From Minisyncoccota bacterium (lineage in GTDB: Bacteria > Patescibacteriota > Minisyncoccia > Phycocordibacterales > Phycocordibacteraceae), in NCBI GenBank assembly GCA_035547315.1, contig DASZVH010000001.1, positions 1-58,458 of the forward strand: a stretch of DNA of 58,458 nt, in the 5' to 3' direction. Each line of letters starts with the position of its first letter. Position 1 is the first letter of the stretch. Under the pieces are notes generated by a model, which did not search any database, was not told the DNA's origin, and worked only from the letters and a program-made list of their open reading frames with translations. This document shows, piece after piece, positions 1 to 29,979 of the stretch. The translations under genes were made by a program, and so were the position numbers.

Positions 1-429
1 CGGGCGGGAAGGCGGGCGCGTCTCGACAGTGACGACGCTTTCGCCGGCGCGCCCCAGCACGTCTTCCCCGCCCGCCCCGAGGAGGCGGCTCGCGCCCGCG
101 ACGACGACGCTCGCCTGCCCCGCCCGGCGCGCCGAGAAGGTCACGACTCCGAAGGTGGTCGTGCCGGTGAAGCCGCGCGGGTAGCCGGCCGTCTCGACGA
201 GGACGCCGCGGGCGTTGTCGACGAGCTCGTAGCCGGGCTCGGGGAGCGCGAGCCACCCCGGCGCGAGCGTGAAGCGCTCGACCGAGAGGAGCGCCGGATC
301 GAAAACGAGCCGCGCCTCGACCGTGCCGATGGTGGTGGTGCCCGCCGCCGCGGAAAGCGCGAGCGTGAACTCGCTCCCGGTGGGGACGGCGAGCAGCTGC
401 GGTACGAGGAGAAGCGCGGCGAGCGTCAT
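1..429 (-). CDS. Cohesin-like domain protein (3' end runs off the window)
   Basis: Hand translation from ATG 429: MTLAALLLVPQLLAVPTGSEFTLALSAAGTTTIGTVEARLVFDPALLSVERFTLAPGW...GFTGTTTFGVVTFSARRAGQASV. The pattern G-x-EF-x-V/L...ARL-x-FDP-x-LL-x-V is cohesin-like. ATG overlaps the upstream TGA (ATGA). Not in the supplied ORF track. Confidence 0.65.
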   Translation of the reverse strand, partial: MTLAALLLVPQLLAVPTGSEFTLALSAAAGTTTIGTVEARLVFDPALLSVERFTLAPGWLALPEPGYELVDNARGVLVETAGYPRGFTGTTTFGVVTFSARRAGQASVVVAGASRLLGAGGEDVLGRAGESVVTVETRPPSRP

Positions 430-989
430 AGGGAGAAGTGGAGCAGCAGGAGGTTGAAGTCGGAGAGGCCGACGGTCCCGTCGCCGTCGAGATCCGCCGG
501 GTCGAGAAGCCCCGCGAGGCCCCAGCGCGCGAGCAGGAAGGCCAGGTCGCGCCGGTCGACGCGCCGGTCGCCGTCGAGATCGTAGTCGCGCTCCTGCGGC
601 GTGGTGCTGCCGGCGGCCGGGCCGTTCGCGTTGCCGGGCGCCGTGCTCGAGGCGCTCCCCGGCGGCAGCGCGAGGTCGAGCTCGGTGATCGCGCCGCTCT
701 CGAAGCGCGCGCTCTGCCGGGCGGCCGCGCCGCCGATGGCGAAGGTAATAGGCTCGCCCGGCTGCGCGGCGCTCACGAGGAGCAGGTGCGGCGCGCGGCC
801 GTAGGTGCCGCCCGCGAGCGTCGTCGAGGCGACGACGCGGCCGCCGACGAGCGCGTCGATCTCGCTCCCCACCCGCCCGGGCGCAGTGCCCCAGAAGAGC
901 TCGGGGATGACGGGTACCGCCGCGGCGCTCGCGCCCGCCGGCAGCGCGAGCGCGAGCGCGAGGAGCGCGCTAGAGATCGCTCGGGACAT
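426..989 (-). CDS. Secreted protein with C-terminal dockerin-like domain (two Ca-binding loops)
   Basis: C-terminal 187 aa of ORF 426..1691, from MSRAISS: signal peptide, an Ig-like domain, then DLDGDRRVDRRDLAFLLARW and DLDGDGTVGLSDFNLLL. Confidence 0.75.
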   Translation of the reverse strand: MSRAISSALLALALALPAGASAAAVPVIPELFWGTAPGRVGSEIDALVGGRVVASTTLAGGTYGRAPHLLLVSAAQPGEPITFAIGGAAARQSARFESGAITELDLALPPGSASSTAPGNANGPAAGSTTPQERDYDLDGDRRVDRRDLAFLLARWGLAGLLDPADLDGDGTVGLSDFNLLLLHFSL

Positions 990-1935
990 AGTTCTCGGGC
1001 GCGGGCGTATAGATCCAGAAGGCGGCGCCGGGCGCCACCGCGCTCGGCAGGCCGAAGGATTCGCTCCCGGGCAGGAAGGAATAGAGCGCGGTGTACTCGA
1101 TCCCGGCCCAGCCGATCGAGGCGAACGCGTCGTCGAGGTCGGCCGTCGAGGTCGCATAGCTGCCGATAAGATTCCACCCCGCGGCGAGCGCGCGCGAGGG
1201 CGGCGTGCGGCCGGGAGCGAGATAGGGCGTGCCGTTGCCGGAGAGCTGCGCCTCCGCGCGTGCGCGGACGAAGTAGCCAGCGCCCGGGGCTGTCGCGGCG
1301 AGCGTGGAGAGCTCCGGGTGCGCCGGGTCGAAGACGAGCCAGCCGCCGACCGCCGCCGGATCGGCCAGGTCGTAGCTCCAGACCGAGTCGATCGCCGGGC
1401 TCGCGAAGACCTGCGCCGCGCCCGGGTCGTCGGGTACCACCGGCAGCGAGAGCAGATTCCACCCCCGCGCGAGCGGGAGCGCGTACTCCTCGGGAGTGAA
1501 GTCGGGCGGCGGCTCCTGCGGCGGGAGCGCGACCGCGACCGTCTTGCTCGTGTCGTAGAGCGCATCGCTCTCCTGCGCGGTCGAGGTGGCGGCGAGCGCG
1601 AGCGTGTAGGTGCCGGGCGCGACCACGGCCCCGGCGGCGTCCGTGCCGTCCCAGAGCTTGGGCTCGGGGTTGGTGACGCCGCTTGAGGCATAGAGCGTGC
1701 GGATGCTCTCGCCTGAGGGGCCGAGCACCATAAGCGAGACCTTCGCCCGCTCGGAAAAGCCGAAGGTTATCGCAGTGGAGGTCGCGAGCGCCGGCGAAGA
1801 GGTCGCGGAGGGGTAGATCGTCACGGGCGCGACCTCATAGTGCGTGAGCGCAAGCGCGTCCGCGCGCGCCCAAAGCGGCGCGAGGAGCGCGAGCAAAACA
1901 GCCGATACGGTGGCGGGCCGTGCGAGCGGGGCCAT
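970..1935 (-). CDS. Secreted surface protein with FlgD-like Ig domain and two GWNL repeats
   Basis: Signal peptide from MAPLARP; FlgD-Ig-like V..GPSGESIRTL...WDGTDAAGAVVAPGTYT; repeats LARGWNLLSLP...PGAGYF and LAAGWNLIG...PGAAFW. Confidence 0.65.
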   Translation of the reverse strand: MAPLARPATVSAVLLALLAPLWARADALALTHYEVAPVTIYPSATSSPALATSTAITFGFSERAKVSLMVLGPSGESIRTLYASSGVTNPEPKLWDGTDAAGAVVAPGTYTLALAATSTAQESDALYDTSKTVAVALPPQEPPPDFTPEEYALPLARGWNLLSLPVVPDDPGAAQVFASPAIDSVWSYDLADPAAVGGWLVFDPAHPELSTLAATAPGAGYFVRARAEAQLSGNGTPYLAPGRTPPSRALAAGWNLIGSYATSTADLDDAFASIGWAGIEYTALYSFLPGSESFGLPSAVAPGAAFWIYTPAPENYVPSDL

Positions 1936-4515: not shown

Positions 4516-4926
4516 TCAAGGAAAGAACTCGAGCACGAGATTCTTCGCCACGATCAGCATCGCGACGAATCCCGGCAGTATGACGATGAGCCAGGGGGTC
4601 CAGTACCCCGCATGCATCGGCCAGCCGAAGGCGCCAAGGAAAAAGGCACCGCAGGTAAGCAGTACGCCTGCCGCGACGATATCTTCGGCTTCAGAGGCGT
4701 TCGACGAATAGACATCTTCCCTTATCATTGCCCAGAATAAGAAGATTCCAGCGACGGCCGAAATCATTGCGCCAAAGACGATAAAGGACCCTTCGGTGAT
4801 AATCTTTCCTGCGACATGCTCCATACCCCAGAATAGACTGACCGACACGCTTATCGCCTCGACTCCCCACAGCGTGAGATAGGCGAACGCGAGCATGCTG
4901 AAGAAGATGAGGATCTTGTTGAACAT
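4516..4926 (-). CDS. Hypothetical multi-pass membrane protein
   Basis: 136 aa with about four hydrophobic segments; GGAGG 5 nt before ATG; more AT-rich than its flanks. Confidence 0.7.
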   Translation of the reverse strand: MFNKILIFFSMLAFAYLTLWGVEAISVSVSLFWGMEHVAGKIITEGSFIVFGAMISAVAGIFLFWAMIREDVYSSNASEAEDIVAAGVLLTCGAFFLGAFGWPMHAGYWTPWLIVILPGFVAMLIVAKNLVLEFFP

Positions 4927-4988: not shown

Positions 4989-5053
4989 TTATTTGTCAAG
5001 CGCGGCGATGCCGGGGGGGGTGCCTGCGGCGAGGAAGTCGAGCATGGCGCCGC
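4989..5053 (-). pseudogene. Diverged duplicate of the pgk 3' end
   Basis: 4999-5053 matches 5643-5697 at 48/55 nt. Reads GAMLDFLAAGTPPGIAALDK* versus pgk GAMLDFLTSGTLPGIAALG*. Confidence 0.8.
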
Positions 5054-5316
5054 TACGAGCCGTAGAGCTCGTGATGCGTGCCGACCAGCAGCAGCACAAC
5101 ATTGCCATCATTGAGCGCGTAATAAATTACTCGGATATCTCCGGTGATATTGATGCTTCTTTGGCCTTGGTATTTGCCAGAGAGCGGATGATTCTCTAAG
5201 AGCGGATTGAAGGGATCGCGCAGAAAAAGCTCGAGACGCTCAATAACTCGGCGCTGGAGAGGCTTCGGAAGTTTCCGATATTGTTTCCTGAATCGTTGCG
5301 AGCGGAACGACTCCAT
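5053..5316 (-). CDS. Type II toxin, RelE/YafQ-like mRNA interferase
   Basis: FRKQYRKL, LENHPLSGKYQGQRSINITGDIRVIY and C-terminal VGTHHELY; 6 nt downstream of the antitoxin gene. Confidence 0.9.
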   Translation of the reverse strand: MESFRSQRFRKQYRKLPKPLQRRVIERLELFLRDPFNPLLENHPLSGKYQGQRSINITGDIRVIYYALNDGNVVLLLVGTHHELYGS

Positions 5317-5322
5317 GGATCG

Positions 5323-5592
5323 TTATGAGTCGAGATCCCGTCTCAGTTCTTCTATCGAGTGGAATTGTTTCGCCTTGCCTTCTCGGAACTCTCTCATCGC
5401 GGCGTCGATGGCGCGGCGTGTCCTCGCGTTCGGGATGAGCGGCTCAAGATCGAGGTGCGGATCGCGGACGAACGCGCGCAAGGAGGCGTTAACGACGACG
5501 GAGAGCGGAACGCCGAGTTCTTTCGCGGCCCTCTGCGCCGCCTTTTTTATCTTGGCGTCGGTACGGACGTTGAGGATGACTTTCGTGTTCAT
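5323..5592 (-). CDS. Type II antitoxin, RelB/DinJ family
   Basis: RHH-like LNVRTDAKIKKAAQRAAKELGVPLSVVVNASLRAF and PNARTRRAI. Confidence 0.88.
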   Translation of the reverse strand: MNTKVILNVRTDAKIKKAAQRAAKELGVPLSVVVNASLRAFVRDPHLDLEPLIPNARTRRAIDAAMREFREGKAKQFHSIEELRRDLDS

Positions 5593-7576: not shown

Positions 7577-8986
7577 TCAGTCGACCTGCCGCCAGTCGGT
7601 GAACTCGTATTGGGTCGAGGTGACGGGGGTGAAAGGCGGCGGGTCCGCCGCGTTGGCCCGGTCGAAGGAGGTGGTGCGGTCTTCGTAGCCGGAGATCGAG
7701 CCGCTGCGGCAGTAGGAGTCGCCGTAGACCCACTCGGTGCCGGGCCGGAGCGCCGAGACGATGGAGCCCAGGATCGAGAGCGTGTGCTTGTCGTCGTAGC
7801 CGCTGTAGCGGCAGTCGTAGAGATTGCGCCCGAAGGCGCCGCCCTGGGCGACGAAGATGCCGTCCATCGTGAGCGAGTCGGGCGTCGCGGGGCCGATCAG
7901 GAAATTATTCTGCGCGATGGCGGTGAGCCCGTCGCTGCCGTCGGTCGCGGTATACGCGAGATTGTCCGGGACCACGATGTTAGCGTCGACGACCGTGTCC
8001 GCGACGTCCGCGGCGACCAGCGTGACCTTGCCGTTCACGGTGCCCTCGATCCACGCGTTGTCCTCGACGAAGATGAGCCCGCAGGAGGAGGGCACGGCGT
8101 AGGTGCCGAGCGTCTTTTCCTTGTTGATGAGCGAGTAATCGTTGACGAAGCGGCCGCCCGAGGAGCCGTCCACCGGCACCGCGCTTAGGGCGGAGACCGA
8201 GGTCACCTGCTTGACCGTGACCGTGCCGTCGGCATTGAAAATGAGGTGGTAGCCCAGGTGCGTGTCGCTGCCGGTGGAGACGCGGCCGAAGTAGAGCCCG
8301 GAGGACTGCGCCGTGCTCTTGAGCGCGGCGAAGTCGGCCGCGATGCCCGCGAAGTCGACCTGCGGCGTCGGGTACTCCCAGAGGCTCTGATTGCTGCCGT
8401 CGCCCACGACGCCCGGCGCGCGCCGCTGTTCCGGGCTGCATCCGTTGGAGGGGCCGCAGTCCCAGGTCGAGAGCGAGGAGGAGACGGGCGCGTTCGGATC
8501 GCCGTCCATCCGCAGGCCGCCGTTGGTATGGAGCGGCCCGTAGGTGGTGGAGGTGAACCAAGCGTTCGTGTCCAAGATATAGGAGTAGTCGGCGATCGAG
8601 GGCTGCGCATAGGTGGCGACGATGGTCGAGGCGATGCCGGGCGCTTCGGCCGGGGCGCCGGTCGAGCGGACGGTGAGCGCGGTAGTGACGCCGCAGGCGG
8701 TGTCGGCCGCGACGGCGAGCGTGTAGGAGCCCGCCGCGCCGCCTTCCGGGTCCGCGTAGGAGAAGGTGCCGCCCGCCGTGTCGCCCGGGAAGTGCGCGAG
8801 CAGCCAACGGTAGTACTCGATGCCCGCCTCGGCGATCGCGAAGGCCTCGCTCTTCTGCCGCAGCTGGTCCTCGGCGCGATTCTCCGCCAGGACGTAGCCC
8901 GAGAGCGCGGAGAGCACGACGAAGAAGACGGCGCCGAAGACGAGCACGAGGAGGGTGATCGAGCCGCGGGAAGGAAGCGTGCTCAT
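7577..8986 (-). CDS. PilX-like minor pilin / pilus tip protein
   Basis: C-terminal part of ORF 7577..10405 from MSTLPSRGSITLLVLVFG (G then hydrophobic, no E5); A..IAEAGIEY motif; large C-terminal domain. Confidence 0.75.
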   Translation of the reverse strand: MSTLPSRGSITLLVLVFGAVFFVVLSALSGYVLAENRAEDQLRQKSEAFAIAEAGIEYYRWLLAHFPGDTAGGTFSYADPEGGAAGSYTLAVAADTACGVTTALTVRSTGAPAEAPGIASTIVATYAQPSIADYSYILDTNAWFTSTTYGPLHTNGGLRMDGDPNAPVSSSLSTWDCGPSNGCSPEQRRAPGVVGDGSNQSLWEYPTPQVDFAGIAADFAALKSTAQSSGLYFGRVSTGSDTHLGYHLIFNADGTVTVKQVTSVSALSAVPVDGSSGGRFVNDYSLINKEKTLGTYAVPSSCGLIFVEDNAWIEGTVNGKVTLVAADVADTVVDANIVVPDNLAYTATDGSDGLTAIAQNNFLIGPATPDSLTMDGIFVAQGGAFGRNLYDCRYSGYDDKHTLSILGSIVSALRPGTEWVYGDSYCRSGSISGYEDRTTSFDRANAADPPPFTPVTSTQYEFTDWRQVD

Positions 8987-9588
8987 AGCGACTGGTCGCG
9001 CAGGTTGCGCAGCGTCGCCTCGCCCGAGAGGGTGAAGGCGACCGGCGCGCGATTGATATTGACGTCCACCACCACCGTCGTCTCGACCGAAGCGACCTCC
9101 GCGATGTCGACCGGCGCGGAGAGGGGCGTGCCCGAAGCATCGTAATAGGTGAAGACGGGCGCGTCGGCGCCGTTGGTGACATAGCTCGCGATGGTAGTGG
9201 TCGCGGTGGCGCCGCCGGCGTACGAGGAGCTGGCAGGCTCGACGACCGCCGCGTAGAGCACGCCCTGCGCCACCGCGTAGGTGACCTGCTCGATCGTGCC
9301 GCCGCCGTCCAGGTCGGCGAAGAAGGTGATCGAGGAGGTCGCGGCGCTCTTGATCGGGTAGGAGCCGTCCGCGCCGTAGGAGGCCTCGCGCAGCGCGCGC
9401 ATGGAGTCGTCGAGCGCGCGCCGCGCGCTCGCGACCGCCTGCGACTCCTGGAGCGCGTAGGAGTCGGTAGCGTAGAAGTAGCGGAGGAGCTGGCCGATAG
9501 CGAGCGAGACGAGCGCGGTGAGGGCGATCGCCATGACGGTCTCGACCAGAGTGAAGCCCTTCGTCCGGCGCAGAGGAAAGCTTTTCAT
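8983..9588 (-). CDS. Prepilin-type minor pilin (PilW/GspJ-like)
   Basis: MKSFPLRRTKG-FTLVETVMAIAL class III signal peptide. Confidence 0.85.
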   Translation of the reverse strand: MKSFPLRRTKGFTLVETVMAIALTALVSLAIGQLLRYFYATDSYALQESQAVASARRALDDSMRALREASYGADGSYPIKSAATSSITFFADLDGGGTIEQVTYAVAQGVLYAAVVEPASSSYAGGATATTTIASYVTNGADAPVFTYYDASGTPLSAPVDIAEVASVETTVVVDVNINRAPVAFTLSGEATLRNLRDQSL

Positions 9589-10874
9589 GGGAAGGAGACG
9601 GCCGAGAAGGTCTGCCCCGAGACGGCGACCGACGAGCTCGCGCTCGCGTAGCCCGCGGCCGAGGCGGTGGCGACGTAGGTCGCGGACGCCAGGCCGCCGA
9701 AGTACGCGTTCCCGCACGAGCTCGTCGTCGCCGTCTCCTCGAAGCCGCTGCCGGCGAGCTCGACGGCCGCGCCCGCGACCGGCTGCCCGGCGGCGTCCGC
9801 GACCGTGAGTAGGAGCGCGTTGGCCGTCGAGCTCGCCAGATACAGCGCCGCGGAGAAGCTCTCGGCCGGCGAGAGCGCGTAGGGCGGCGCCGGGCAGGCG
9901 TCCGCGATGTCGTAACCGGGAGCGGCGAGCGCGTAGTCGTCCCACTCGAGCGATTCGTGGTCGGCTCCCGCGCCGTCGGTCGAGAGGTCGAGCGCGTTCT
10001 TGTAGATCGGCGCGCCCGCCGCGGTGGTGCCGATGGTCTTGGCGCCCGTGAGCGTATACGCCGCGTCGGCGAGCGCGGTCGAAGTGCCCGCGTAGTAGGT
10101 ATAGAGCGAGAAGGAAGCGAGGCGGTCGATCGCGAAGGTCCCGGTCGTGGTATCGTCCTTGGCGACGGTGAAATAGCCGGGCGAGGGGTTCGCATTCTCG
10201 CCGTCGCGCGCATACGTCTGCGCCGAGGAGTACCCGGCTTTGGCGACGTAGACCTGGTATTGGGCGGAGGGCAAGGCGCCGGGCAGTTCGACCCGGCCGC
10301 TCGCGTCCGTGTACGCGGTGAGGTCGACCGCGGGCGTGAGCGAGGCGTCGACGATATGCACGCTCGCGTCGGGGATGCCCGCGCCCGCCGCGTCGACGAC
10401 CTCAATCTCGAGCGTGCCGCCGCCGTCGGTGTTCTCGATCCCGGGCGGGGCGAAGGTGGAGACGAGCGCGATCTCCTCGGGCGTGCCGTAGAAGCTCCAA
10501 GAGACGCTCACTCGCGCGATTTTATAGTCGGTGGTGATCCCGTTCGTGTCGCTCGCGCCCGTGCCGTCGGCCGGGTCGTCGGCGTACTCGATGAACGTGC
10601 TCACGGCATAGGCGACGCCGTCGACGGTGCTCGCGCTTCGCTGCGCGACGGGGCCGGCGGGGATCCCGCCCTCCGTGCCGAGCGTGTCGTAGTCGAGGCC
10701 GCGCAGGTATTCCATCTGATTCTCGGCCAGCGCGGTCGCCGCCGCCTTGGTCTTGGCGAGCGCGGAGACGGCGAGCGAGGCTTTGAGCACGCCGAAGAGC
10801 GCGAGGAAAAGGATGAGAAGCAGCGCGACGCCCACGACGACGTCGATGAGGCTCATGCCGCGCGCCTTCCCCAT
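9585..10874 (-). CDS. Prepilin-type minor pilin (PilV/GspI-like) with C-terminal Ig/carboxypeptidase-regulatory-like domains
   Basis: MGKARG-MSLIDVVVG; repeats V.DAAG..I/V.GA.V.I...T...G. Confidence 0.78.
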   Translation of the reverse strand: MGKARGMSLIDVVVGVALLLILFLALFGVLKASLAVSALAKTKAAATALAENQMEYLRGLDYDTLGTEGGIPAGPVAQRSASTVDGVAYAVSTFIEYADDPADGTGASDTNGITTDYKIARVSVSWSFYGTPEEIALVSTFAPPGIENTDGGGTLEIEVVDAAGAGIPDASVHIVDASLTPAVDLTAYTDASGRVELPGALPSAQYQVYVAKAGYSSAQTYARDGENANPSPGYFTVAKDDTTTGTFAIDRLASFSLYTYYAGTSTALADAAYTLTGAKTIGTTAAGAPIYKNALDLSTDGAGADHESLEWDDYALAAPGYDIADACPAPPYALSPAESFSAALYLASSTANALLLTVADAAGQPVAGAAVELAGSGFEETATTSSCGNAYFGGLASATYVATASAAGYASASSSVAVSGQTFSAVSFP

Positions 10875-10876: not shown

Positions 10877-12091
10877 TCAGCCGATCGCCGATGAGAGCGA
10901 GTAGATCGGCGCGATCATCGAGACCGCGAAGACGCCCACCGCCGCGCCGATAAAGAGCATCAGCACGGGCTCGATGATCGTCGAGAGATCTTTGGTGCGC
11001 TCCTCGACGTCTTCTTCGTAGAACTCCGCGATCTTCTTCAGCATATCGGCGACCGAGCCAGTCTCCTCTCCGACCGCGGCCATGTCGCTCATGAGGACGG
11101 GATAGAGCTTGGGGTGCGCGGCGAACGCGCTCGACATCGGCTGGCCCTTCTCGACCGCGTCCTTGGCCTCGCCCACCACGCGGCCGAAGACGTTCTCTCC
11201 CACCACCTCGCTCGCGATCGCGAGCGCCTCGACCACCGGCACGCCCGAGGAGAGGAGCGAGGAGAGTGTGCGCGCGGCGCGCGCGGCGAAGGTCTCGCGC
11301 ACGAGCTCGCCCACGACCGGGACATAGAGCGCGAGCGCGAGCACCGCCTTCTTTCCCGGCCGCGAGCGGACGAAGAGCACGAGTCCCGCGCCCAAGAACG
11401 CGAGGCCGCCGAGCACCAGCGCCACGTGCGCGACCATGAAGTTCGAGACGTCGGTGATGATCCGGGTCGCGAGCGGCACCTTGACCTTGAGCGAGACGAA
11501 GGTGGCGGTCAGGGTCGGAACGACAAAGATCATCATGAGCACACCCACCACGAGGATCGCGGAGACGACGATGGCCGGGTAGATCATCGCGCCCTTGACC
11601 TTGCGGATGAGCGCGTTGCCGCGCTCCATCTGCAGCGCCACCACCGCGAGCGCGGGCGCGAGGCCGCCGGACTCCTCTCCCGCCTTGACCATCGAGATGA
11701 AGAGCTCGGAGAAGAGCTTGCGGTGCTTGCGGAGCGCCTCGTTGAAGGAGGAGCCCTGCTTCACCGATTCCTCGACGTCGGCGAGTATCGCCTTGAGCCG
11801 CTTGTTGCCGGATTGCCGCTCGAGGACCGAGAGCGCGCGTGAGAGCGAGAGCCCCGCCGAGAGCATCGCCGAGAGATTCTTGGTCATGATGATGAGCTCG
11901 GTCTCCTTGACCCCGGTGCCGAAGGTGATGTCGAGCCAGGAAGGCAGCGCGAAGCCGCCGCCCTGCGCGAGGGCGCTCACCGTGCCGCCCTCTTTCTCCA
12001 CCTGGTCATAGACCGCGAAGCGCGAGGCCGCCTCGATGACGCGCTTTTCCGCGCTGCCGTCCGCCTTCTTCACCGTGACGCGGAATTTCAT
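10877..12091 (-). CDS. pilC: Type IV pilus platform protein PilC (T2SSF)
   Basis: LSAMLSAGL, GEESGGL, YP, LLSSGVP, GEETG, IEP. Confidence 0.95.
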   Translation of the reverse strand: MKFRVTVKKADGSAEKRVIEAASRFAVYDQVEKEGGTVSALAQGGGFALPSWLDITFGTGVKETELIIMTKNLSAMLSAGLSLSRALSVLERQSGNKRLKAILADVEESVKQGSSFNEALRKHRKLFSELFISMVKAGEESGGLAPALAVVALQMERGNALIRKVKGAMIYPAIVVSAILVVGVLMMIFVVPTLTATFVSLKVKVPLATRIITDVSNFMVAHVALVLGGLAFLGAGLVLFVRSRPGKKAVLALALYVPVVGELVRETFAARAARTLSSLLSSGVPVVEALAIASEVVGENVFGRVVGEAKDAVEKGQPMSSAFAAHPKLYPVLMSDMAAVGEETGSVADMLKKIAEFYEEDVEERTKDLSTIIEPVLMLFIGAAVGVFAVSMIAPIYSLSSAIG

Positions 12092-13850: not shown

Positions 13851-15599
13851 CTACTCCGAGACCGCCCGCAGGACCTCCTCGAGCGAAGTGACGCCGCGCG
13901 CCGCTTTGTAGAGGCCGTCCTCGAGCATGGTGAGCATGCCCTCCTTGCGCGCCTCCTCTTCGATAGCGTCGGTGGTGCTCTGCTTGAGCATGATCTCGCG
14001 CAGCGCGGGCGAGACAGCGAGCACTTCGTGGATGCCGATGCGGCTCTTGTAGCCGTCCTCGCACTCGCCCGAGGGCACCGGGCGGTAGAAGGAGAGATCC
14101 TCAACACGCGCCTTCTCCTTGACGATCTTTTCCTCCCGCAGCGCCTTGAGCGCCGCGACGAAGTGGTCCGCGCCCGCCACCTTGTCCGCCGCCGCCTGGT
14201 CGAGATGGTACTCCTCCTTGCTCTCGCAGAGGCGGCGCACCAGGCGCTGGCCGACGATCACCTTGAGCGTTGAGACGAGGAGGAAGGGCTCGACGCCCAT
14301 GTCGACGAGGCGCGGGATGGCGCCGGCGGCGGAGTTGGTGTGGATGGTGGAGAGCACGAGGTGGCCGGTGAGCGCCGCGTTGATGGCGAGCGAGGCCGTT
14401 TCGCCGTCGCGGATCTCGCCGACCATGACGATGTTCGGGTCCTGGCGCAAAAGCGCCCGCAGCCCGTTCGCGAAGGTGAAGCCGATCGCCGGGTTGACCT
14501 GCGTCTGGTTGACGCGCTTCATCTGGTACTCGATCGGGTCCTCGATGGTCGAGATGTTGACGTCGGGCGTGTTCAGGATGTCGAGGATGGTGTAGAGCGT
14601 GGTCGTCTTGCCGCTCCCGGTCGGCCCGGAGATGAGGATGATGCCGGTGGTCTGCTTGATGGCGCGGTGGATGCGCTCCAAGTTCTCGCCGTGGAAGCCC
14701 AAGGCGTCGAGCGAGAACCCCTCGCCGCTCTCGCGCAGAAGGCGCATCACGATCTTCTCGCCGAAGAAGGTCGGCAGCACCGAGACGCGGAAGGAGACGC
14801 GCATGCCCTCGGTCTCCATCTTGAAGCGGCCGTCCTGCGGCAGGCGCTTCTCGTCGAGCTTCAGGCTCGAGAGCACCTTGATGCGCGCGACGATGCCCGC
14901 GGCGGCGGCGGGCGGCAGCGTCATCGCGTCGTGGAGGATGCCGTCGATGCGGTAGCGGACCAGGACCTGTTCCTCCTCTGGCTCGATATGGATATCGGAG
15001 GCGCCCTGGACGATCGCATGGCGGAGCAGGGTGTCCACGATGCGCACGATCGGGAGATCCTCGGCCATCTGCTTGAGCTCCGCGCCGGAGAGCTCTTTCC
15101 CCTTCTCTCCCACCACCCTGATCTTGCCCGACTCGCTCGCGATGATGTCGCCGAACTCGTCCTTGAGGGACTTCTGGTACTGCACCAGGGCGTGCTTGAG
15201 CGAATCGGTGTCGGTCAGGCGCGGCAATATCTTGAGGCCGGTCGACTTGCGCACCGAGTCGATCGAGGGGAGGTCCTCGACGTCGAGCATCGCGACCTCG
15301 AGCGAGTCGCCCTCTTTCTTGTACGCGACGATGTTATGAGTGCGGGCGATCGGCTCCGGGATGAGCGCCAGCGTCTCGGGCGGGATCTTGTGCTCCTTGA
15401 GGTTAACGAAGGGGATGCCGAGCGTGTAGGCCTGGATGCGCCGCAGCGCGTCCTCGGAGAGCGAGCCGCGCGAGACGAGCGTGTCGCCGAGCGGCATACC
15501 CCGCCCCTTGGCGTCTTCGGCCGCCGCGTCGATCTCCTTCTTGGCCACGAGGCCCGAGTCGATGATGAAATCCTTCAGCTCTCCCTCTGAAACGTGCAT
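13851..15599 (-). CDS. pilB: Type IV pilus assembly ATPase PilB/GspE
   Basis: ASDIHIEP, RLPQDGR, GPTGSGKTTTLY, TIEDPIEY, LRQDPN..MVGEIRD, TGHLVLSTIH. Start taken at MHVSEG. Confidence 0.96.
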   Translation of the reverse strand: MHVSEGELKDFIIDSGLVAKKEIDAAAEDAKGRGMPLGDTLVSRGSLSEDALRRIQAYTLGIPFVNLKEHKIPPETLALIPEPIARTHNIVAYKKEGDSLEVAMLDVEDLPSIDSVRKSTGLKILPRLTDTDSLKHALVQYQKSLKDEFGDIIASESGKIRVVGEKGKELSGAELKQMAEDLPIVRIVDTLLRHAIVQGASDIHIEPEEEQVLVRYRIDGILHDAMTLPPAAAAGIVARIKVLSSLKLDEKRLPQDGRFKMETEGMRVSFRVSVLPTFFGEKIVMRLLRESGEGFSLDALGFHGENLERIHRAIKQTTGIILISGPTGSGKTTTLYTILDILNTPDVNISTIEDPIEYQMKRVNQTQVNPAIGFTFANGLRALLRQDPNIVMVGEIRDGETASLAINAALTGHLVLSTIHTNSAAGAIPRLVDMGVEPFLLVSTLKVIVGQRLVRRLCESKEEYHLDQAAADKVAGADHFVAALKALREEKIVKEKARVEDLSFYRPVPSGECEDGYKSRIGIHEVLAVSPALREIMLKQSTTDAIEEEARKEGMLTMLEDGLYKAARGVTSLEEVLRAVSE

Positions 15600-15651
15600 G
15601 GATAAAAGTATAGCGCGCCGAGACTGTGTCTCGACGCGCTGCTGGTGAGAA

Positions 15652-16260
15652 CTATGCGGCAGTAACGGCGTCCCGGATCCGCCTTGCTTCTTTCCAAGGG
15701 TCGTCATGCTCCGCAGGATGCGCATGCCAGACTCGTGCACTCAACACATCGCAGGAGTGGCAGAAGCCAGCAAGCTCGTTCATCACGCGCCTTCTCGGGC
15801 TGTAGTCCGCCATCTCTCCTTCGACGTATTTGAGGGCGTTCATTTGAGCATCGGTCAGGACGATATTGTATTCGCGGAGTTTTGCGAGGCGGAATGTGTG
15901 GTCATCCTGCTTCCCTGCAAATTCCGGCTTGTGATGGAGCTGTCCGTCCGGCCGAAGCTCATATTTCCACGGCTTCTCAATGTCGTGGAGAAAAAGAATC
16001 AGGACCGCATCACCGAGCGTGAAGGGCAGCGGCCGACGCTTATTCATCCACTCGTATTGGTTGCTGGCGATGTTCAGTATCTCCTGAACATGGTCGAAAT
16101 AACCTCCAGGCCAATTTTGATGGTTATTGGTCGAACCCTGCGCCTTTTGGAAAAGCGCGCGATAATACTTGAGGATTTGGAGACACGCCTGGTTCTGGTC
16201 GTAATCCGCAATTTCTTCAAGCATCTCCTCGATTGTGTAGTACGGCTTATCGGAAGCCAT
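15652..16260 (-). CDS. HD-domain phosphohydrolase-like protein
   Basis: GSTNNHQNWPGGYFDH, LHDIEK and C-terminal HSCD; GAGGTG before ATG; AT-richer than flanks. Confidence 0.7.
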   Translation of the reverse strand: MASDKPYYTIEEMLEEIADYDQNQACLQILKYYRALFQKAQGSTNNHQNWPGGYFDHVQEILNIASNQYEWMNKRRPLPFTLGDAVLILFLHDIEKPWKYELRPDGQLHHKPEFAGKQDDHTFRLAKLREYNIVLTDAQMNALKYVEGEMADYSPRRRVMNELAGFCHSCDVLSARVWHAHPAEHDDPWKEARRIRDAVTAA

Positions 16261-21764: not shown

Positions 21765-23783
21765 CTAGAACTCGATATAGCCGGGCACCACGTTGACGGT
21801 TACGCAGACCGGCGCGCCGCCGTCGCAGACGATGCAGTATTTGGTCTGCTGATTGACCGTGTCGGTGTCGCCGGTCTTGTCGAGACCGCAAGTCTGCCCG
21901 TCGCTTGCGAGCGTGCCCGAGTCATAGCCGTCGGAGCCGGTGACGCGGCAGGAGTCCGCGACGCTCGAGACGGCCCAAGAGAGTGCCGTTTGCCCGCCCT
22001 GCGCGACGCGCGTCGGGTTGGCGGCGATGGTGGGGGGCGCGCCAGCCTTGCAGCTGATATCGGCGAAGCACTCCACGCTGGTCGCCTTTTGATCTTGGGT
22101 GGCGGCGGTCACCTGCGCGCCGTAGTCGGAGCGTGTCGCATAGCTCACGTCCCATGGGTTGCCAGCGCCGGTGTTGCCCGCCGTGTCTTTCCAGGAGAAG
22201 CTTGGCGTTCCGTCGAAGCCGGTAGCCGAGGCGATCCAGTCCACCGAGAGGCCCGCCCCATTGCCGAGACAGCTGACGCTCGGGGTGGGCGACTCGAAGA
22301 CGGTAAGCGCGGTCCAGCTCGCGCTGCAGTTATTGTCGTAGCTGGACTCGTTCTGCACGCCCGCGCCGCCCGCCGGCGGCGTGTTGCCGGCCGTATCGGT
22401 ATTGGCGCACAGGCGCACCCACCAGCTGCCGGCCACGGGGAAAATGTAGGAGACGGTGTCGGCGCTCTGGCCGCCGCTTGCAAGCGGCGCGGATTCATCG
22501 AAGGAGCGCGTCGCCGTCAGATCGGAAAAGCGGGCGGGCGGTTCGGCGCCCTGGTAGATCTCGAAGAGGTCGTTCGCGGTGGCCGAAGCGTCGGTGCCCG
22601 CGTTGCTGACGGTCCCCGAAAGGTTCGCGGGCCGCCCCACGACCGGGGCGGCGGGCGTCGAGAGGGCGCTCGAGGCGACGAGGTCGGGCGCGTGGGAAGT
22701 CTCGCCGACGGAGAGTTCGGTCCAACTCGCGCTGCAGTTATTGTCGTAGTTGGATTCGGCGGTGCCGCCGTAGGAGGAGCCGGGCGTGTTGCCCGCCGTG
22801 TCGGTGTTGGCGCACAGGCGCACCCACCAGGTCCCCGCGTTCGGGAAGGTATAGCCGACCGCGTCGGTGACGCTCTTCCCCGCGGCGAGCGCCGCGTTGG
22901 GTCCGGCCGCTTTGACGTCGGTCAGGTCGGAAAAGCGCGCGGGCGGCTCGGCGCCCTGGTAGATCTCGAAGAGGTCGGAGAACTTCGCGCCCGTCGAAGC
23001 GTCGCCCGTGTTGTGCACGACGCCGGTGAGCGTCGCCGGGACGCCGGCGGGCGGCGCGGGCGGGGCGCTCGTTACCGAGTCGGCGGTGAGATCGGGCCCA
23101 CCCTGCGCGCCGTTGACGGTGACGGTCGCCTGGGCGGTCGCCTTATCCGGGTCGTCGCTCGCGCCATCGGTGCAAGTGATCGTGTAGACGGTGGTCTTGG
23201 CGGGCGAGACGTTCTTGGAGCCGCCCGCGGCCGAGACTTTGCCCACGCCGTTGTCGATCGAGCAGGCGGTGTCCGCGTCCTCGTCCTCGTTGTAGACGGA
23301 CCAGGTCAGGGTGGAGGAGCCGCCGGCGTCGATAGCCGCCGGCTTGGCGGCGAGCGAGACGGTGATGTCGGTGATCGCGTACCAGATCGTGTAGTCGTCG
23401 CCTTTTTGCTGCTCCTCCTTGGCGACCGGATGTGTTTGGGTCTTTGAATAGCCGTAGAGCGTGAGGTTGTAGCAAGGCGCCGTGACGGTCTCGCCGCTGC
23501 AGGTACCGGACGAACGATGCCAGGCGACGAGGTTGCACGCGTCATAGCCGGTGAGAGCGCAGGTCCTTTCGGCGCTCTGGATCGAGGAGAGGAGCTCCTC
23601 ATCTCGGACTCCGATGGGATACGGCGGGAGGAGGGTGCCGCTGCCAGAGCCGTAGGCGGCGAAACCCTTATAAGAATAGCTTCCGAGGTTGACTGAGGCC
23701 GCACGCGCATGCGGAGCGAGCGTGAGCGAGCCGATGGCAAGTACGGCAAGGAGCACCGCACGGAGCCCGGTGAGGGTAGTCAT
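21765..23783 (-). CDS. Secreted Ig-like protein with two tandem CARDB-like domains
   Basis: Signal peptide from MTTLTG; two 128-aa repeats PDL...V.N.G...WWVRLCANTD...ES.YDNNC at 22713-23096 and 22305-22688. Confidence 0.75.
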   Translation of the reverse strand: MTTLTGLRAVLLAVLAIGSLTLAPHARAASVNLGSYSYKGFAAYGSGSGTLLPPYPIGVRDEELLSSIQSAERTCALTGYDACNLVAWHRSSGTCSGETVTAPCYNLTLYGYSKTQTHPVAKEEQQKGDDYTIWYAITDITVSLAAKPAAIDAGGSSTLTWSVYNEDEDADTACSIDNGVGKVSAAGGSKNVSPAKTTVYTITCTDGASDDPDKATAQATVTVNGAQGGPDLTADSVTSAPPAPPAGVPATLTGVVHNTGDASTGAKFSDLFEIYQGAEPPARFSDLTDVKAAGPNAALAAGKSVTDAVGYTFPNAGTWWVRLCANTDTAGNTPGSSYGGTAESNYDNNCSASWTELSVGETSHAPDLVASSALSTPAAPVVGRPANLSGTVSNAGTDASATANDLFEIYQGAEPPARFSDLTATRSFDESAPLASGGQSADTVSYIFPVAGSWWVRLCANTDTAGNTPPAGGAGVQNESSYDNNCSASWTALTVFESPTPSVSCLGNGAGLSVDWIASATGFDGTPSFSWKDTAGNTGAGNPWDVSYATRSDYGAQVTAATQDQKATSVECFADISCKAGAPPTIAANPTRVAQGGQTALSWAVSSVADSCRVTGSDGYDSGTLASDGQTCGLDKTGDTDTVNQQTKYCIVCDGGAPVCVTVNVVPGYIEF

Positions 23784-23999
23784 GCGCTTATTGTATAAGG
23801 GGCGCGCCGCGGGCGGCCCCCTTGTCCACATGGAAATGCACGAGAGGACATTTCGGCCGTCTGTCGAGGGGTATTGCGCCGAAAATGGCGCATCCTATAC
23901 TTTTAGAACGCGCCTCGCCCTCGCGGCCCGGCCGCGCCCACCCGCTCGGAGCCGAGCTCAGCAAGGCGAAGGAGGGGTTTACCAGCCTCAGCACCACCC

Positions 24000-28108: not shown

Positions 28109-28182
28109 TGGTGCGGACGGCGAGAATCGAACTCGCGCTATCTGCTTGGAAGGCAGAAGTTCTACCACTAAACTACGTCCGC
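28109..28182 (-). tRNA. tRNA-Gly(TCC), CCA encoded
   Basis: GCGGACG acceptor stem, anticodon arm TCTGC-CTTCCAA-GCAGA, GTTCGA T-loop, ends GCACCA. Confidence 0.95.
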
Positions 28183-28241
28183 GCAAACGGGATACAGAGC
28201 GAGGATACCATTTTTGCCGGTTCATGGGAGTATAGAGGGGC

Positions 28242-29363
28242 ATGCGCACCGATCTCCTCGCTGTCCTTGCGGCCGTGGCGGCGGCGCTTTTCGTCGGCTA
28301 TTTCAGCACCGGGGTGAGCGTCGTGCGCGGGCGCGCGGGCGCGCCGGCAGCATCGACGACGCTTGCGGGCCTCGCCCCCGCGCCCCTGCCCTCGCTCGAT
28401 CTCCCGGGGCTCGCGAGCAGCACGGAGCGCGCGGGCGCCGCGACAAGCGCCCCCGCCGAGGCGGCGCCCGCCCTCCCGCCGCCAGCGGCAGGCGCGCCGC
28501 GCCCGACAGTCGCGGCTCCCGAGCCCGCGCTCCCCGCGGGCGACCTCTCTGCCGCCTCCGACATCCTGCGCCCCGCGCTCGTTAATATCCTCTGCATCTC
28601 CCCCGCCGGCTCGGGCCTCGAGTCCATCTCGGGGAGCGGCGTCTTGATCACGAACAGCGGCATCATCCTCACCAACGCGCACATCGGCCAGTATTTCTTG
28701 CTCGCGGACAAGGGAGTTTCTTGCGCGATCCGCACCGGCAGCCCGGCCACGACGCGCTACCGCGCAGCGCCTATCTTCGTCTCTCCCGCCTGGCTCTCCG
28801 CCAACCCGAACGTCTTGGTCGAGTCCGCGCCGGTGGGCACCGGGGAGCACGACTTCGCCCTCCTCGCGATCGACGCGACGGTCGACGGGAGCCCTTTGCC
28901 GGGCGTTTTCCCCTTCGTCCCGCTCGCGCAGGATCCGCCCGTGCTCGGCGAGCCGGTGGTCATCGGCTCATACGCCGCGCAGTTCTTGAAGGCGAGCGAG
29001 GTCGAGAACGCGCTCTCCGCCACGCTCGTCTACGGCAGCGTCGCAAACGTCTACACCTTCTCGGCCAGCTCGGTCGACGTCGTCTCGCTCGGCGGCTCCG
29101 CCGCGGCGCAGGAGGGCTCTTCAGGCGGGGGCGCCGTCGACGCCTCGGGCGAGCTTGCTGCGACCATCACCACCAGCACCACCGAGGGCAACACGGCCTC
29201 GCGCGAGCTCAACGCGATTACCGCCTCGTATATCCGCCGCGACTATAGCGCTCAGGTCGGCGCGCCGCTCGGCGCGCTCCTCGCCGCTCCCGTTGAGAGC
29301 GATATTGAGAGCTTTGCCGCGCAGATCCCTGCGCTCGAGGCGAAACTCACGCTCCCCCGCTAG
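28242..29363 (+). CDS. Membrane-anchored trypsin-like (S1) serine protease
   Basis: Triad motifs LTNAHI, HDFALL and GSSGG; N-terminal TM with Pro/Ala linker. Confidence 0.88.
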   Translation: MRTDLLAVLAAVAAALFVGYFSTGVSVVRGRAGAPAASTTLAGLAPAPLPSLDLPGLASSTERAGAATSAPAEAAPALPPPAAGAPRPTVAAPEPALPAGDLSAASDILRPALVNILCISPAGSGLESISGSGVLITNSGIILTNAHIGQYFLLADKGVSCAIRTGSPATTRYRAAPIFVSPAWLSANPNVLVESAPVGTGEHDFALLAIDATVDGSPLPGVFPFVPLAQDPPVLGEPVVIGSYAAQFLKASEVENALSATLVYGSVANVYTFSASSVDVVSLGGSAAAQEGSSGGGAVDASGELAATITTSTTEGNTASRELNAITASYIRRDYSAQVGAPLGALLAAPVESDIESFAAQIPALEAKLTLPR

Positions 29364-29434
29364 TCGGGCCGCTGGGAATCGAACCCAGTCTACGTCCTCC
29401 CAAAGGACGCGTACTACCGTCATACGCCGGCCCG
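29364..29434 (-). tRNA. tRNA-Pro(TGG), CCA not encoded
   Basis: CGGGCCG acceptor, CGTCC-TTTGGGA-GGACG anticodon arm, GGTTCGATTCC; followed by CTA. Confidence 0.93.
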
Positions 29435-29445
29435 TTCGCCCCACT

Positions 29446-29841: not shown

Positions 29842-29960
29842 GCCCTTTAATTATACCGCTTAGATGCTCGGCTTTCCTCGGACAGATGAAGAGCTTCATG
29901 TCCTTTATCCCCAATGTCCACATGTTTTTGCACACCCCCCGAACTAGCGTGCCTGCGCTA

Positions 29961-29976: not shown

Positions 29977-29979
29977 TAG

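What the first reader, a model, noticed from the sequence alone, without database searches (positions are those of the whole stretch)
1..1935. Coupled FlgD-Ig / dockerin / cohesin operon: a possible non-cellulosomal surface assembly
Seen: three overlapping minus-strand genes (20-nt and ATGA overlaps). They encode a FlgD-Ig protein with GWNL repeats, a secreted protein ending in two DxDGDxxV Ca-loop repeats, and a cohesin-like protein missing from the ORF track. Known: cohesin-dockerin pairs are Ca-dependent modules that build cellulosomes, and they also occur in non-cellulolytic microbes with unclear roles. Inference: with no adjacent glycosidase, this pair may scaffold adhesins or an S-layer-like coat on an ultrasmall episymbiont. 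The rest of the operon lies left of the window.
Basis: partly seen in the sequence, partly recalled or inferred. Interest (0 to 1): 0.72.

Follow-up and report, generated by a model that had tools for sequence, protein, structure and literature searches.

The report
Three-gene cohesin–dockerin surface-anchor cassette
Three overlapping genes encode a secreted Ig-domain protein, a small secreted adaptor ending in a calcium-binding "plug" (dockerin) and a tethered "socket" (cohesin); the same plug-socket gene pair sits next to large adhesin-like proteins in many uncultured, probably ultra-small bacteria, which suggests an undescribed way of fastening surface proteins to the cell.

Summary
Three minus-strand genes (A 970-1935, B 426-989, C 1-429) overlap by 20 nt and by ATGA. 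A carries a FlgD-type Ig domain and two GWNL motifs. B has a signal peptide and ends in two 12-residue Ca loops. C is cut by the contig end.

C folds as a cohesin: AlphaFold2 pLDDT 97, and the 33 best PDB matches are all cohesins. It belongs to a family of 782 cluster representatives. The usual layout is signal peptide, cohesin, linker, C-terminal membrane helix. One member is labelled Minisyncoccota (CPR).

In 80 metagenome loci, 72 of 74 testable cohesin domains have a dockerin-ending gene directly upstream, and no dockerin lies elsewhere. So this is a dedicated 1:1 pair, not a multi-client scaffold.

A's C-terminal GWNL domain ends the protein upstream of B, several of them over 900 aa and Ig-rich, in about 20 loci. 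These are nearly the same loci whose B shares the window's B N-domain. I infer a chain: surface protein, adaptor, anchor.

Nothing of the cassette lies left of the window. A near-identical strain shows 53 more codons of C, then fusA.

One puzzle remains: C in this sub-clade has no signal peptide. No binding was tested.

The parts
970..1935 (-). Gene A: secreted 321-aa protein (signal peptide, FlgD-type Ig domain, Pro-rich linker, C-terminal GWNL domain)
   Evidence: Translation. Homologues at 56-66% identity. The start at 1935 is supported by the alignment.
1531..1848 (-). A residues 30-135: Ig-like beta-sandwich of the FlgD_ig type
   Evidence: Pfam FlgD_ig E 5.6e-6, 26.7 bits against a cut-off of 27. 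AF2 pLDDT above 90 over this stretch. Foldseek gives only generic Ig/Fn3-like hits, including FlgD hook cap at ranks 28-37.
973..1494 (-). A residues 148-321: C-terminal 'GWNL' domain (GWNL at residues 158 and 253; ends YVPSDL)
   Evidence: phmmer and a custom HMM find it at the extreme C-terminus of the protein directly upstream of the dockerin gene in about 20 loci, E 1e-46 to 1e-72 for full tails. No Pfam match. The AF2 model of this part is unreliable.
970..989 (-). 20-nt overlap of A's stop with B's start
   Evidence: Read directly. The same 20-nt overlap is called in L007, L009, L012, L013 and L098.
426..989 (-). Gene B: secreted 187-aa adaptor (signal peptide, about 85-aa N-domain, Pro/Ser/Gly linker, dockerin)
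   Evidence: Translation. Homologues P0013 and P0014. Family alignment A7.
666..923 (-). B residues 23-108: conserved N-domain (IPELFWG...GGTYG...ITFAIGG...F.SG)
   Evidence: Homologous to the N-domains of dockerin proteins in 22 loci (custom HMM, E down to 1e-55). No Pfam family.
429..599 (-). B residues 131-187: two-repeat dockerin (Ca loops DLDGDRRVDRRD and DLDGDGTVGLSD, each followed by a helix)
   Evidence: Pfam Dockerin_1 22.1 bits against a cut-off of 22.9, plus EF-hand hits. 14 of 15 family members hit Dockerin_1, best E 1.4e-7. It is the only dockerin in the window by custom HMM.
426..429 (-). ATGA overlap of B's stop with C's start
   Evidence: Read directly. Across 75 pairs, 10 have the same 4-nt overlap and 51 have a gap of 9 nt or less, overlaps included.
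1..429 (-). Gene C, first 143 of 196 codons: cohesin domain (residues about 1-137) and the start of the Pro-rich linker; cut by the contig end
   Evidence: AF2 pLDDT 97.1, pTM 0.89. Foldseek top 33 PDB hits are all cohesins, best E 8.7e-10, TM 0.76.

Best explanation
This is a self-contained three-gene surface-display cassette.

Gene C is the anchor. It is a single cohesin domain on a low-complexity stalk that ends in a hydrophobic C-terminal segment. In most of the family that segment is a clear transmembrane helix followed by basic residues.

Gene B is an adaptor. It is a small Sec-exported protein whose C-terminal two-repeat, Ca-binding dockerin plugs into C's cohesin.

Gene A is the displayed protein. 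It is secreted, has an Ig-like domain, and its C-terminal GWNL domain is held by B's N-terminal domain.

The overlapping stops and starts (20 nt and ATGA) couple translation, so the three parts would be made in matched amounts. In relatives the A position holds proteins that run past 900 aa and are rich in Ig, YDG, MBG or beta-helix domains. The likely role is therefore to tether adhesin-like surface proteins non-covalently to the cell, probably for attachment to surfaces or host cells.

Shown here: the gene structure, the cohesin fold, the dockerin motifs, the strict 1:1 adjacency, and the matching of A-tail type to B N-domain type.

Inferred: dockerin-cohesin binding, A-B binding, surface location, and the adhesive role.
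For: Cohesin:
- AF2 model pLDDT 97.1.
- The 33 best PDB matches are all cohesins, including anchoring and non-cellulosomal ones (3ul4, 4dh2, 2xdh, 2vo8, 4iu3).
- 29 of 60 family members hit Pfam Cohesin, best E 3.9e-9.
- NCBI names member P0039 'cohesin domain-containing protein'.

Anchor:
- The family has 782 representatives.
- The usual layout is signal peptide, cohesin, P/T/S linker, C-terminal TM helix and basic tail.
- 126 of 149 members pass a hydrophobicity test for a C-terminal TM helix.

Dockerin:
- Ca-loop residues are read directly.
- Pfam Dockerin_1 hits 14 of 15 relatives.

Pairing:
- 72 of 74 evaluable cohesin domains have a dockerin-terminated ORF directly upstream on the same strand.
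- The 2 exceptions look like extra hits to a second ORF fragment of the cohesin gene.
- All 75 dockerin ORFs in 353 kb of loci lie directly upstream of the cohesin gene (72 paired by the test; 3 in loci with under 200 nt upstream), and none lies elsewhere.
- These pairs comprise 36 distinct cohesins at 70% identity.
- The B-to-C gap is 9 nt or less in 51 of 75 pairs.
- The same pair occurs in L014 and L017.

A-B link:
- A same-strand ORF, often over 900 aa, precedes B in nearly all loci.
- All 20 loci with a GWNL-type A tail have the window-type B N-domain.
- Other tail types go with other B types: counts 11+5, 4 and 2, confirmed with HMMs.
- A-position proteins carry YDG, MBG_2, Big_5/12/13, PKD, Invasin_D3 and beta-helix domains.

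Hint of co-variation:
- The cohesin change K to E in [K/E]TAGYP occurs only in the five pairs whose first dockerin repeat is non-canonical, for example RRDLA.
Against: - No binding was predicted or measured. No multimer prediction was available.
- The association of A-tail type with B N-domain type could be shared ancestry rather than a physical fit. The K/E co-variation may be a single evolutionary event.
- In the window's own sub-clade (window, P0178, P0016, P0020-22, L012), C has no N-terminal signal peptide. The protein starts at beta-strand 1. Its tail (…AAAAAASAPHVWLAAIWGWFARHLPF) is only weakly hydrophobic. Export and outward topology of this particular cohesin are therefore unexplained.
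- The first Ca loop is degenerate in some close relatives, such as L007 and L009.
- The window's own Pfam scores are below the cut-offs.
- No expression data exist.
- The GWNL domain could not be modelled.
Confidence: 0.6

Rival explanations
1. It is a two-part system only. B is itself the displayed protein: its N-domain acts as a small coat, wall-binding or glycan-binding module, docked on C. The upstream surface protein A is just a co-transcribed neighbour that works independently.
For: The B-C adjacency is the invariant feature. The gene upstream of B varies in size and family, and in a few loci it is not an obvious surface protein (L053/L063, L055, L032). There is no direct evidence for A-B contact.
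Against: A same-strand ORF, often cut by the locus edge at over 900 aa, precedes B at short distance in nearly all loci. Its C-terminal domain type tracks B's N-domain type: 20/20 for the GWNL type. The GWNL domain always sits at the extreme C-terminus and ends in a conserved Y-x-P-S-N/D-L. The 20-nt A/B overlap is conserved in the window's clade.
Confidence: 0.22
2. The two modules do not bind each other. The cohesin-fold domain would be a generic beta-sandwich stalk or ligand-binding domain. The dockerin-like tail would be a Ca-binding EF-hand-type module with another partner, such as a wall polymer. The adjacency would then reflect a shared pathway, not a complex.
For: Sequence identity to solved cohesins is only 8-15%. 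Profile searches of PDB sequences find no cohesin. Non-cohesin beta-sandwiches (CLIPPER, YcnI) follow in the fold list. Dockerin-like modules without known cohesin partners are common (established knowledge; Peer et al. 2009, not read here).
Against: The 33 top fold matches are exclusively cohesins, and Pfam Cohesin is the only recurrent family. A strict 1:1, same-strand, tightly coupled dockerin-cohesin gene pair holds across 36 clusters at 70% identity. That is hard to explain otherwise.
Confidence: 0.1
3. In this high-G+C soil sub-clade the module has changed function or is decaying. C lacks a signal peptide and a clear TM helix, so it may be cytoplasmic or tail-anchored facing inward. It would then no longer meet the exported B.
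For: There is no signal peptide in the window's C, P0016, P0020-22 or L012's C. No in-frame upstream start offers one. The linker is Arg-rich. The first dockerin loop is degenerate in L007 and L009.
Against: The cohesin domain, the dockerin's second repeat and both overlaps are conserved among members 46-66% identical. That argues for purifying selection on a working trio. The tail motif APH.W…R.L(H/P)F is itself conserved.
Confidence: 0.12
4. It is a minimal cellulosome-like system that organises polysaccharide-degrading enzymes.
For: Cohesin and dockerin are the cellulosome's defining modules. The window encodes a 1893-aa pectate-lyase-like, PG-binding protein 36 kb away.
Against: There is one cohesin and one dockerin in 58 kb. 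The dockerin sits on a 187-aa protein with no catalytic domain. No CAZyme domain was found in the eight A-position proteins scanned or in the L014 gene record; those hold Ig-like, YDG/MBG and beta-helix domains. No dockerin lies away from the cohesin in 353 kb of flanks.
Confidence: 0.03

Closest known systems
Ruminococcus flavefaciens ScaE cohesin with the XDoc of the adhesin CttA / ScaB (PDB 4iu2, 4iu3)
   Same: A single cell-surface-anchored cohesin holds a dockerin-bearing non-enzymatic adhesin on the cell. These cohesins are among the fold matches (ranks 44-45; ScaE 2zf9 at ranks 27-35).
   Different: ScaE is attached to the wall covalently by sortase. Here the family uses a C-terminal membrane helix. 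CttA carries its own dockerin. Here a separate small adaptor (B) carries it, and the large protein has a GWNL tail instead. There is no X module and no link to cellulose.
Clostridium thermocellum OlpA / OlpC single type-I cohesin anchoring proteins (PDB 3ul4, 4dh2)
   Same: One cohesin per protein on the cell surface, binding one dockerin directly. TM-scores are 0.67-0.71 to the model.
   Different: These anchor by SLH repeats to the wall, not by a TM helix. Their clients are many different enzymes, not one dedicated neighbour gene.
Non-cellulosomal cohesin-dockerin modules: Archaeoglobus fulgidus cohesin (PDB 2xdh) and Clostridium perfringens glycosidase/toxin complexes (PDB 2vo8, 2jh2, 2w1n)
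   Same: Cohesin fold used outside cellulose degradation. TM-scores are 0.74 and 0.75.
   Different: Those modules sit inside larger enzymes or in proteins of unknown context. No conserved three-gene cassette, no adaptor logic and no TM-anchored single cohesin has been described for them, to my knowledge.
FlgD flagellar hook cap (Pfam FlgD_ig, PF13860)
   Same: A's residues 30-135 match the FlgD Ig-like domain.
   Different: A has no FlgD N-terminal domain, and no flagellar genes were seen nearby. The domain here is a generic Ig-like spacer, as in many non-flagellar surface proteins.
Dockerin-domain protein SEML1_0315 of the cultivated saccharibacterium Southlakia epibionticum (PMC10633639)
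   Same: A dockerin-bearing envelope protein in a Patescibacteria epibiont, reported essential and thought to act in host interaction.
   Different: That paper mentions no cohesin partner or cassette. I did not compare the sequences, so any relationship is unknown.

Membership tests
Cohesin domain (Pfam PF00963) | About 140-residue nine-stranded beta-sandwich (jelly-roll) fold | tested here: met
   AF2 pLDDT 97.1, pTM 0.89. Foldseek ranks 1-33 are all cohesins, best E 8.7e-10, TM 0.64-0.76 for most.
Cohesin domain (Pfam PF00963) | Sequence score above Pfam's gathering threshold (24.1 bits) | tested here: not met
   Window C scores 14.8 bits and its orthologue P0002 22.1 bits. At family level, 29 of 60 members match with E below 0.01, best 3.9e-9. 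It is a divergent branch rather than a core member.
Cohesin domain (Pfam PF00963) | Binds a cognate dockerin | not testable with these tools
   Only genomic evidence is available: a dockerin-ending gene directly upstream for 72 of 74 evaluable cohesin domains.
Dockerin type I (Pfam PF00404) | Two tandem segments of about 22 residues, each a 12-residue Ca-binding loop (Asp/Asn at positions 1, 3, 5, 12) followed by a helix | tested here: met
   The loops DLDGDRRVDRRD…LAFLLARWG and DLDGDGTVGLSD…FNLLLLHF are read. The pattern is conserved in 75 relatives.
Dockerin type I (Pfam PF00404) | Sequence score above the gathering threshold (22.9 bits) | tested here: not met
   Window B scores 22.1 bits, 0.8 bit short. 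14 of 15 relatives match, best E 1.4e-7.
Dockerin type I (Pfam PF00404) | Ca2+-dependent folding and cohesin binding | not testable with these tools
   Needs ITC or a pull-down with and without EDTA.
Cellulosome | Scaffoldin with several cohesins that gathers several dockerin-bearing carbohydrate-active enzymes, usually with a CBM | tested here: not met
   One cohesin and one dockerin in 58 kb. B has no catalytic domain. The pairing is strictly 1:1 across loci. No CAZyme or CBM domains were found in the cassette proteins scanned.
Cell-surface anchoring scaffoldin (OlpA/OlpC/SdbA/ScaE type) | Cohesin plus a wall-anchoring module (SLH repeats or a sortase LPXTG signal) | tested here: not met
   No SLH or sortase motif was found. 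The family uses a C-terminal TM helix with a basic tail. The window's sub-clade has a weaker hydrophobic tail. It works like an anchoring scaffoldin but is not a member by anchor type.
FlgD flagellar hook-capping protein | FlgD N-terminal domain plus Ig-like domain, encoded among flagellar genes | tested here: not met
   Only the Ig-like domain matches. The NCBIfam FlgD equivalogs score 14-24 bits against cut-offs of 230-383. The neighbours are RNase H, RecJ and fusA.

The most novel reading that the evidence does not exclude
A modular, non-covalent anchoring system, widespread in Patescibacteria, for fibrillar adhesins. A cargo protein's C-terminal sorting or attachment domain (GWNL type or one of at least three other types) is recognised by the N-domain of a cognate small adaptor. 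The adaptor's dockerin locks into a membrane-anchored single cohesin. Cargo-adaptor types are exchanged while the dockerin-cohesin joint stays constant. This apparatus would be a main means by which ultra-small episymbionts hold their attachment fibres.
Probability: 0.3. Interest if true: 0.8.

Novelty: new variant of a known kind. Interest (0 to 1): 0.62.

Why it matters
Cohesin-dockerin pairs are well understood as cellulosome connectors, but their roles outside polysaccharide degradation are mostly unknown.

Here the pair appears as a dedicated, tightly coupled gene couple in a large family: 782 cluster representatives and 217 metagenome loci. It sits beside large adhesin-like proteins in lineages that include Minisyncoccota (CPR). 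The surface biology and host attachment of those bacteria are poorly understood.

If the inferred chain of surface protein, adaptor and anchor is real, three things follow:
- It names the anchoring mechanism for a class of large CPR surface proteins.
- It gives a simple genomic marker for finding those proteins.
- It offers small, well-defined interaction pairs (B-C and A tail-B) that can be tested in vitro without culturing the organism.

Full-text searches of the held literature for cohesin or dockerin together with CPR, Patescibacteria, Parcubacteria, Saccharibacteria or DPANN found no description of such a cassette. That is absence from that library, not proof of novelty.

Tried and rejected
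Searches that led nowhere:
- Exact look-ups of window proteins A and B found no recorded contig.
- The genome-contig scan with B returned only unrelated dockerin tails in Phycisphaerae, Hyphomicrobiaceae and Oscillospiraceae, with no orthologues.
- Sequence-profile searches of PDB with C (A1, A4) found no cohesin, only spurious Ig or SGBP-B matches. Only the fold comparison showed the relationship.
A closer set, A6, worked.
- With the allowed 9 rows, the Ig domain was confident but the GWNL domain was not (pLDDT 30-55). Its fold remains unknown, and Foldseek hits reflect the Ig domain only.
- Organism names for the window's clade could not be obtained from cluster look-ups of housekeeping proteins.
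- No RNA run holds the region.

Readings rejected:
- A cellulosome or enzyme scaffold: single cohesin, single non-catalytic dockerin protein.
- A flagellar FlgD role: only the Ig domain matches.
- A multi-client scaffold: the pairing is strictly 1:1.
- More cassette genes left of the window: fusA follows.
- The 421-aa ORF 426-1691 and the plus-strand ORFs in 438-1686: artefacts of 74% G+C.
- An upstream alternative start that would give C a signal peptide: the in-frame upstream sequence is Arg/Pro-rich and not hydrophobic.
- A Tat 'hitchhiker' export of C bound to B. I considered this because L012's B begins MRRAISS, but the twin arginine is not conserved (the window has SR). I left it as speculation.
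Full report
**1. What is in the sequence**

The first 2 kb of the window is 74% G+C. Long ORFs therefore appear in several frames, and ORF length alone is no evidence of a gene. Three minus-strand frames are real genes.

- Gene A: 970-1935, 321 aa.
- Gene B: 426-989, 187 aa.
- Gene C: 1-429, 143 codons, running off the end.

B's ATG lies 20 nt before A's TAG. C's ATG shares ATGA with B's TGA. C is absent from the ORF list only because ORFs that run off the source are not listed.

A and B both begin with ordinary signal peptides. A has GWNL at residues 158 and 253. B ends in DLDGDRRVDRRD and DLDGDGTVGLSD, each followed by a short helix-like stretch.

| Protein | Family | Score (bits) | Cut-off (bits) |
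|---|---|---|---|
| A | FlgD_ig | 26.7 | 27 |
| B | Dockerin_1 | 22.1 | 22.9 |
| C | Cohesin | 14.8 | 24.1 |

**2. The genes are conserved as a unit**

The window is the entire contig. Five distinct relatives (L007, L009/L010/L011, L012, L013) and a near-identical strain (L098) carry A-B-C in the same order. They have the same 20-nt and 4-nt overlaps. Protein identities are 46-66%.

L012 also shares the upstream genes TIM-PGK-HIT-RecJ-RNase H with the window.

Downstream of C, relatives have rpsL-rpsG(-fusA), or fusA directly.

A soil-metagenome strain differs at 2 of the first 1200 bases. It supplies the missing end of C: P0178, 196 aa. fusA starts 78 nt later. So only 53 codons of C are missing, and no further cassette gene lies to the left.

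**3. C is a cohesin**

A profile of C and its orthologue found 782 representatives at E ≤ 1e-3 in the 50%-identity library, 531 of them at E ≤ 1e-10.

- Of 60 members sampled, 29 match Pfam Cohesin (best E 3.9e-9), and no other family recurs.
- With 150 family sequences as alignment, AlphaFold2 models the window's 143 residues at pLDDT 97.1 and pTM 0.89, as an all-beta domain.
- Foldseek against the PDB returns cohesins at ranks 1-33, best E 8.7e-10 and TM 0.76. These include cellulosomal type I, II and III cohesins, the anchoring cohesins OlpA and OlpC, and the non-cellulosomal cohesins of Archaeoglobus fulgidus and Clostridium perfringens.

Sequence-only searches of the PDB miss the relationship.

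**4. Family architecture and origin**

The typical member is about 250 aa. It has a signal peptide, the cohesin, a Pro/Thr/Ser-rich linker, a C-terminal hydrophobic helix and a basic tail. 126 of 149 members pass a simple C-terminal TM test.

One member carries the NCBI name 'cohesin domain-containing protein [Minisyncoccota bacterium]'. Minisyncoccota is the phylum that holds Patescibacteriia.

Many metagenome loci have contig names such as Hain-H51-01um. I read these as 0.1-µm groundwater filter fractions, but that reading rests on the names and on my own knowledge.

The window itself occurs in soil metagenomes. Its gene content includes type IV pilus ATPase and platform genes, RNase Y and large wall-binding surface proteins. 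This is compatible with such a lineage, but it is not diagnostic. Whether this contig comes from an ultra-small episymbiont remains unproven.

**5. The dockerin-cohesin gene pair is nearly invariant and 1:1**

A scan of JGI metagenomes with a cohesin alignment confirmed 217 relatives, and I kept 80 loci. I built HMMs from the family's dockerin tails and cohesin domains and searched those loci.

- 72 of 74 cohesin domains with at least 200 nt of upstream sequence have an ORF on the same strand that ends in a dockerin directly before them. The two exceptions look like extra hits to a second ORF fragment of the cohesin gene in loci L060 and L079, whose main cohesin hit is paired.
- All 75 dockerin ORFs in the 353 kb of loci lie next to the cohesin, and none lies elsewhere among 3602 ORFs.
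- The pairs represent 53 distinct cohesins at 90% identity and 36 at 70%.
- The B-to-C gap is 9 nt or less in 51 of 75 pairs, and 10 share the 4-nt overlap.
- The same pair occurs in L014, the Minisyncoccota genome, and in L017.
- In the window there is exactly one dockerin and one cohesin in 58 kb.

It also argues against a cellulosome-like scaffold with many clients.

**6. A third, matched component**

The gene directly upstream of B is almost always on the same strand. In many loci it reaches or exceeds 900 aa while still cut by the 4-kb flank.

The window's A is short, but its C-terminal 170 residues (the GWNL domain) are homologous to the extreme C-terminus of those upstream proteins in about 20 loci. 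These are nearly the same loci whose dockerin protein shares the window's B N-domain.

Clustering A tails and B N-domains independently gives these combinations:

| A-tail type | B N-domain type | Loci |
|---|---|---|
| GWNL | window type | 20 |
| second | second | 11 |
| second | third | 5 |
| third | fourth | 4 |
| fourth | fifth | 2 |
| four singleton tails | various | 4 (one each) |

The GWNL-tailed proteins carry YDG, MBG_2, Big_5/12/13, PKD, Invasin_D3 or beta-helix domains. The L014 protein of the second tail type carries Big, PKD, HYR and fn3 domains. This is the make-up of fibrillar adhesins.

I infer that B is an adaptor. Its N-domain holds the cargo's C-terminal domain and its dockerin plugs into the anchored cohesin. 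This step is inference, because shared descent could produce the same association.

A weak hint of a direct dockerin-cohesin contact also exists. The conserved Lys of the cohesin motif KTAGYPGG is Glu in five pairs. Exactly those five pairs have a non-canonical first dockerin repeat, RRDLA or YRDLA in place of (V/I)(L/F)DFN. This may be a single evolutionary event.

**7. What does not fit**

In the window's sub-clade (window/P0178, P0016, P0020-22, L012), C starts directly with beta-strand 1. The spacing L-x-P-x3-x-V-x2-G-x2-F matches the family consensus for that strand, not a signal peptide. No upstream in-frame start offers a signal peptide.

The tail of C in this sub-clade is a Pro/Ala/Arg-rich linker plus APHVWLAAIWGWFARHLPF. 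That motif is conserved but only weakly hydrophobic. How this cohesin reaches an exported dockerin is unexplained.

The first Ca loop is also degenerate in some close relatives (L007, L009).

The GWNL domain could not be modelled with the shallow alignment I was allowed to use. No transcript data exist.

**8. Comparison with known systems**

Functionally the closest analogues are single-cohesin anchoring proteins. These are ScaE, which holds the adhesin CttA through an XDoc in Ruminococcus flavefaciens, and OlpA and OlpC in Clostridium thermocellum.

The differences here are:
- the anchor is a membrane helix, not sortase or SLH;
- the pairing is a dedicated 1:1 gene couple;
- a separate small adaptor is interposed;
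- there is no link to glycoside hydrolases.

It is not a cellulosome. A is not FlgD: only the Ig domain matches, and the FlgD equivalog models score far below their cut-offs.

A dockerin-domain envelope protein was reported essential in a cultivated saccharibacterium, without a cohesin partner being discussed (PMC10633639). I did not test whether it is related.

Literature searches found no description of this cassette.

**9. Verdict**

| Question | Verdict |
|---|---|
| Observation | Confirmed |
| Interpretation | Partly supported |
| Cohesin fold in C | about 0.95 |
| Dockerin in B | about 0.9 |
| B and C bind each other | about 0.7 |
| A is tethered through B | about 0.45 |
| Best explanation as a whole (as scored in the report section) | 0.6 |

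- Supported: a non-cellulosomal cohesin-dockerin pair linked to adhesin-like surface proteins.
- Not supported: more operon genes to the left, a multi-client scaffold, and an S-layer-like coat.
- Not shown: the episymbiont identity of this contig.

The modules are known. The compact, widely conserved cargo-adaptor-anchor arrangement appears to be a new variant of their use.

Noticed in passing
window 5053-5316 (-) and 5323-5592 (-); also 4516-4926 (-): A YafQ/ParE-family toxin (E 2.3e-9) and a RelB-type antitoxin (22.4 bits, at the cut-off) lie with a 136-aa hydrophobic protein of no known family. They sit between PGK and HIT in a lower-G+C stretch (0.58 against about 0.65-0.74). In relative L012, PGK and HIT are adjacent, so this looks like an insertion.
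   Followed up: partly
window 37943-43624 (+): A 1893-aa protein has three PG_binding_1 repeats, fn3 domains and a pectate-lyase-like beta-helix. It could be a large wall-binding or wall-degrading surface protein. It has no dockerin.
   Followed up: partly
window 10877-12091 (-) and 13851-15740 (-): Type IV pilus genes lie about 9-14 kb from the cassette: a T2SSF-like platform protein (assigned by synteny with L012, not scanned here) and a PilB-like ATPase with an MshEN domain. The same neighbourhood is kept in L012 but not in L007, L009 or L013.
   Followed up: partly
window 1-429 (-) and L098 1365-1955: C of this sub-clade lacks a signal peptide and ends in a conserved motif, APH.W(L)..(I/L)..W/F..R.L(H/P)F, instead of the family's clear TM helix plus basic tail. 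Its export route and topology are unknown.
   Followed up: partly
window 58 and 733; runs X2, X3; locus L098: A second strain in other soil metagenomes differs by C>T at positions 58 and 733. The change at 733 makes Gly86Asp in B (P0179). Its contig gave the full-length C.
   Followed up: yes
pairs in the window, L007, L009, L012, L027 against about 75 others: The cohesin motif is [E]TAGYP instead of [K]TAGYP only where the first dockerin repeat is non-canonical (RRDLA, YRDLA, AADLS, MQDAE). This could be a compensatory change at the interface or a single clade-specific event.
   Followed up: partly
L057, L033, L041, L042 (B genes of about 350 aa); L061, L069, L088, L025 (about 400-475 aa): Some adaptor proteins carry an extra conserved domain of about 140 aa between the N-domain and the dockerin. 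No Pfam family recurred among the family members scanned.
   Followed up: no
window 21765-23831 (-) and 7577-10405 (-): Further large predicted proteins: one of 688 aa with a CARDB domain, and a 942-aa ORF with no Pfam match. At the matching position, relative L012 has three smaller genes, one with CarboxypepD_reg domains.
   Followed up: no
window 28112-30141 (-): A cluster of four tRNA genes.
   Followed up: no
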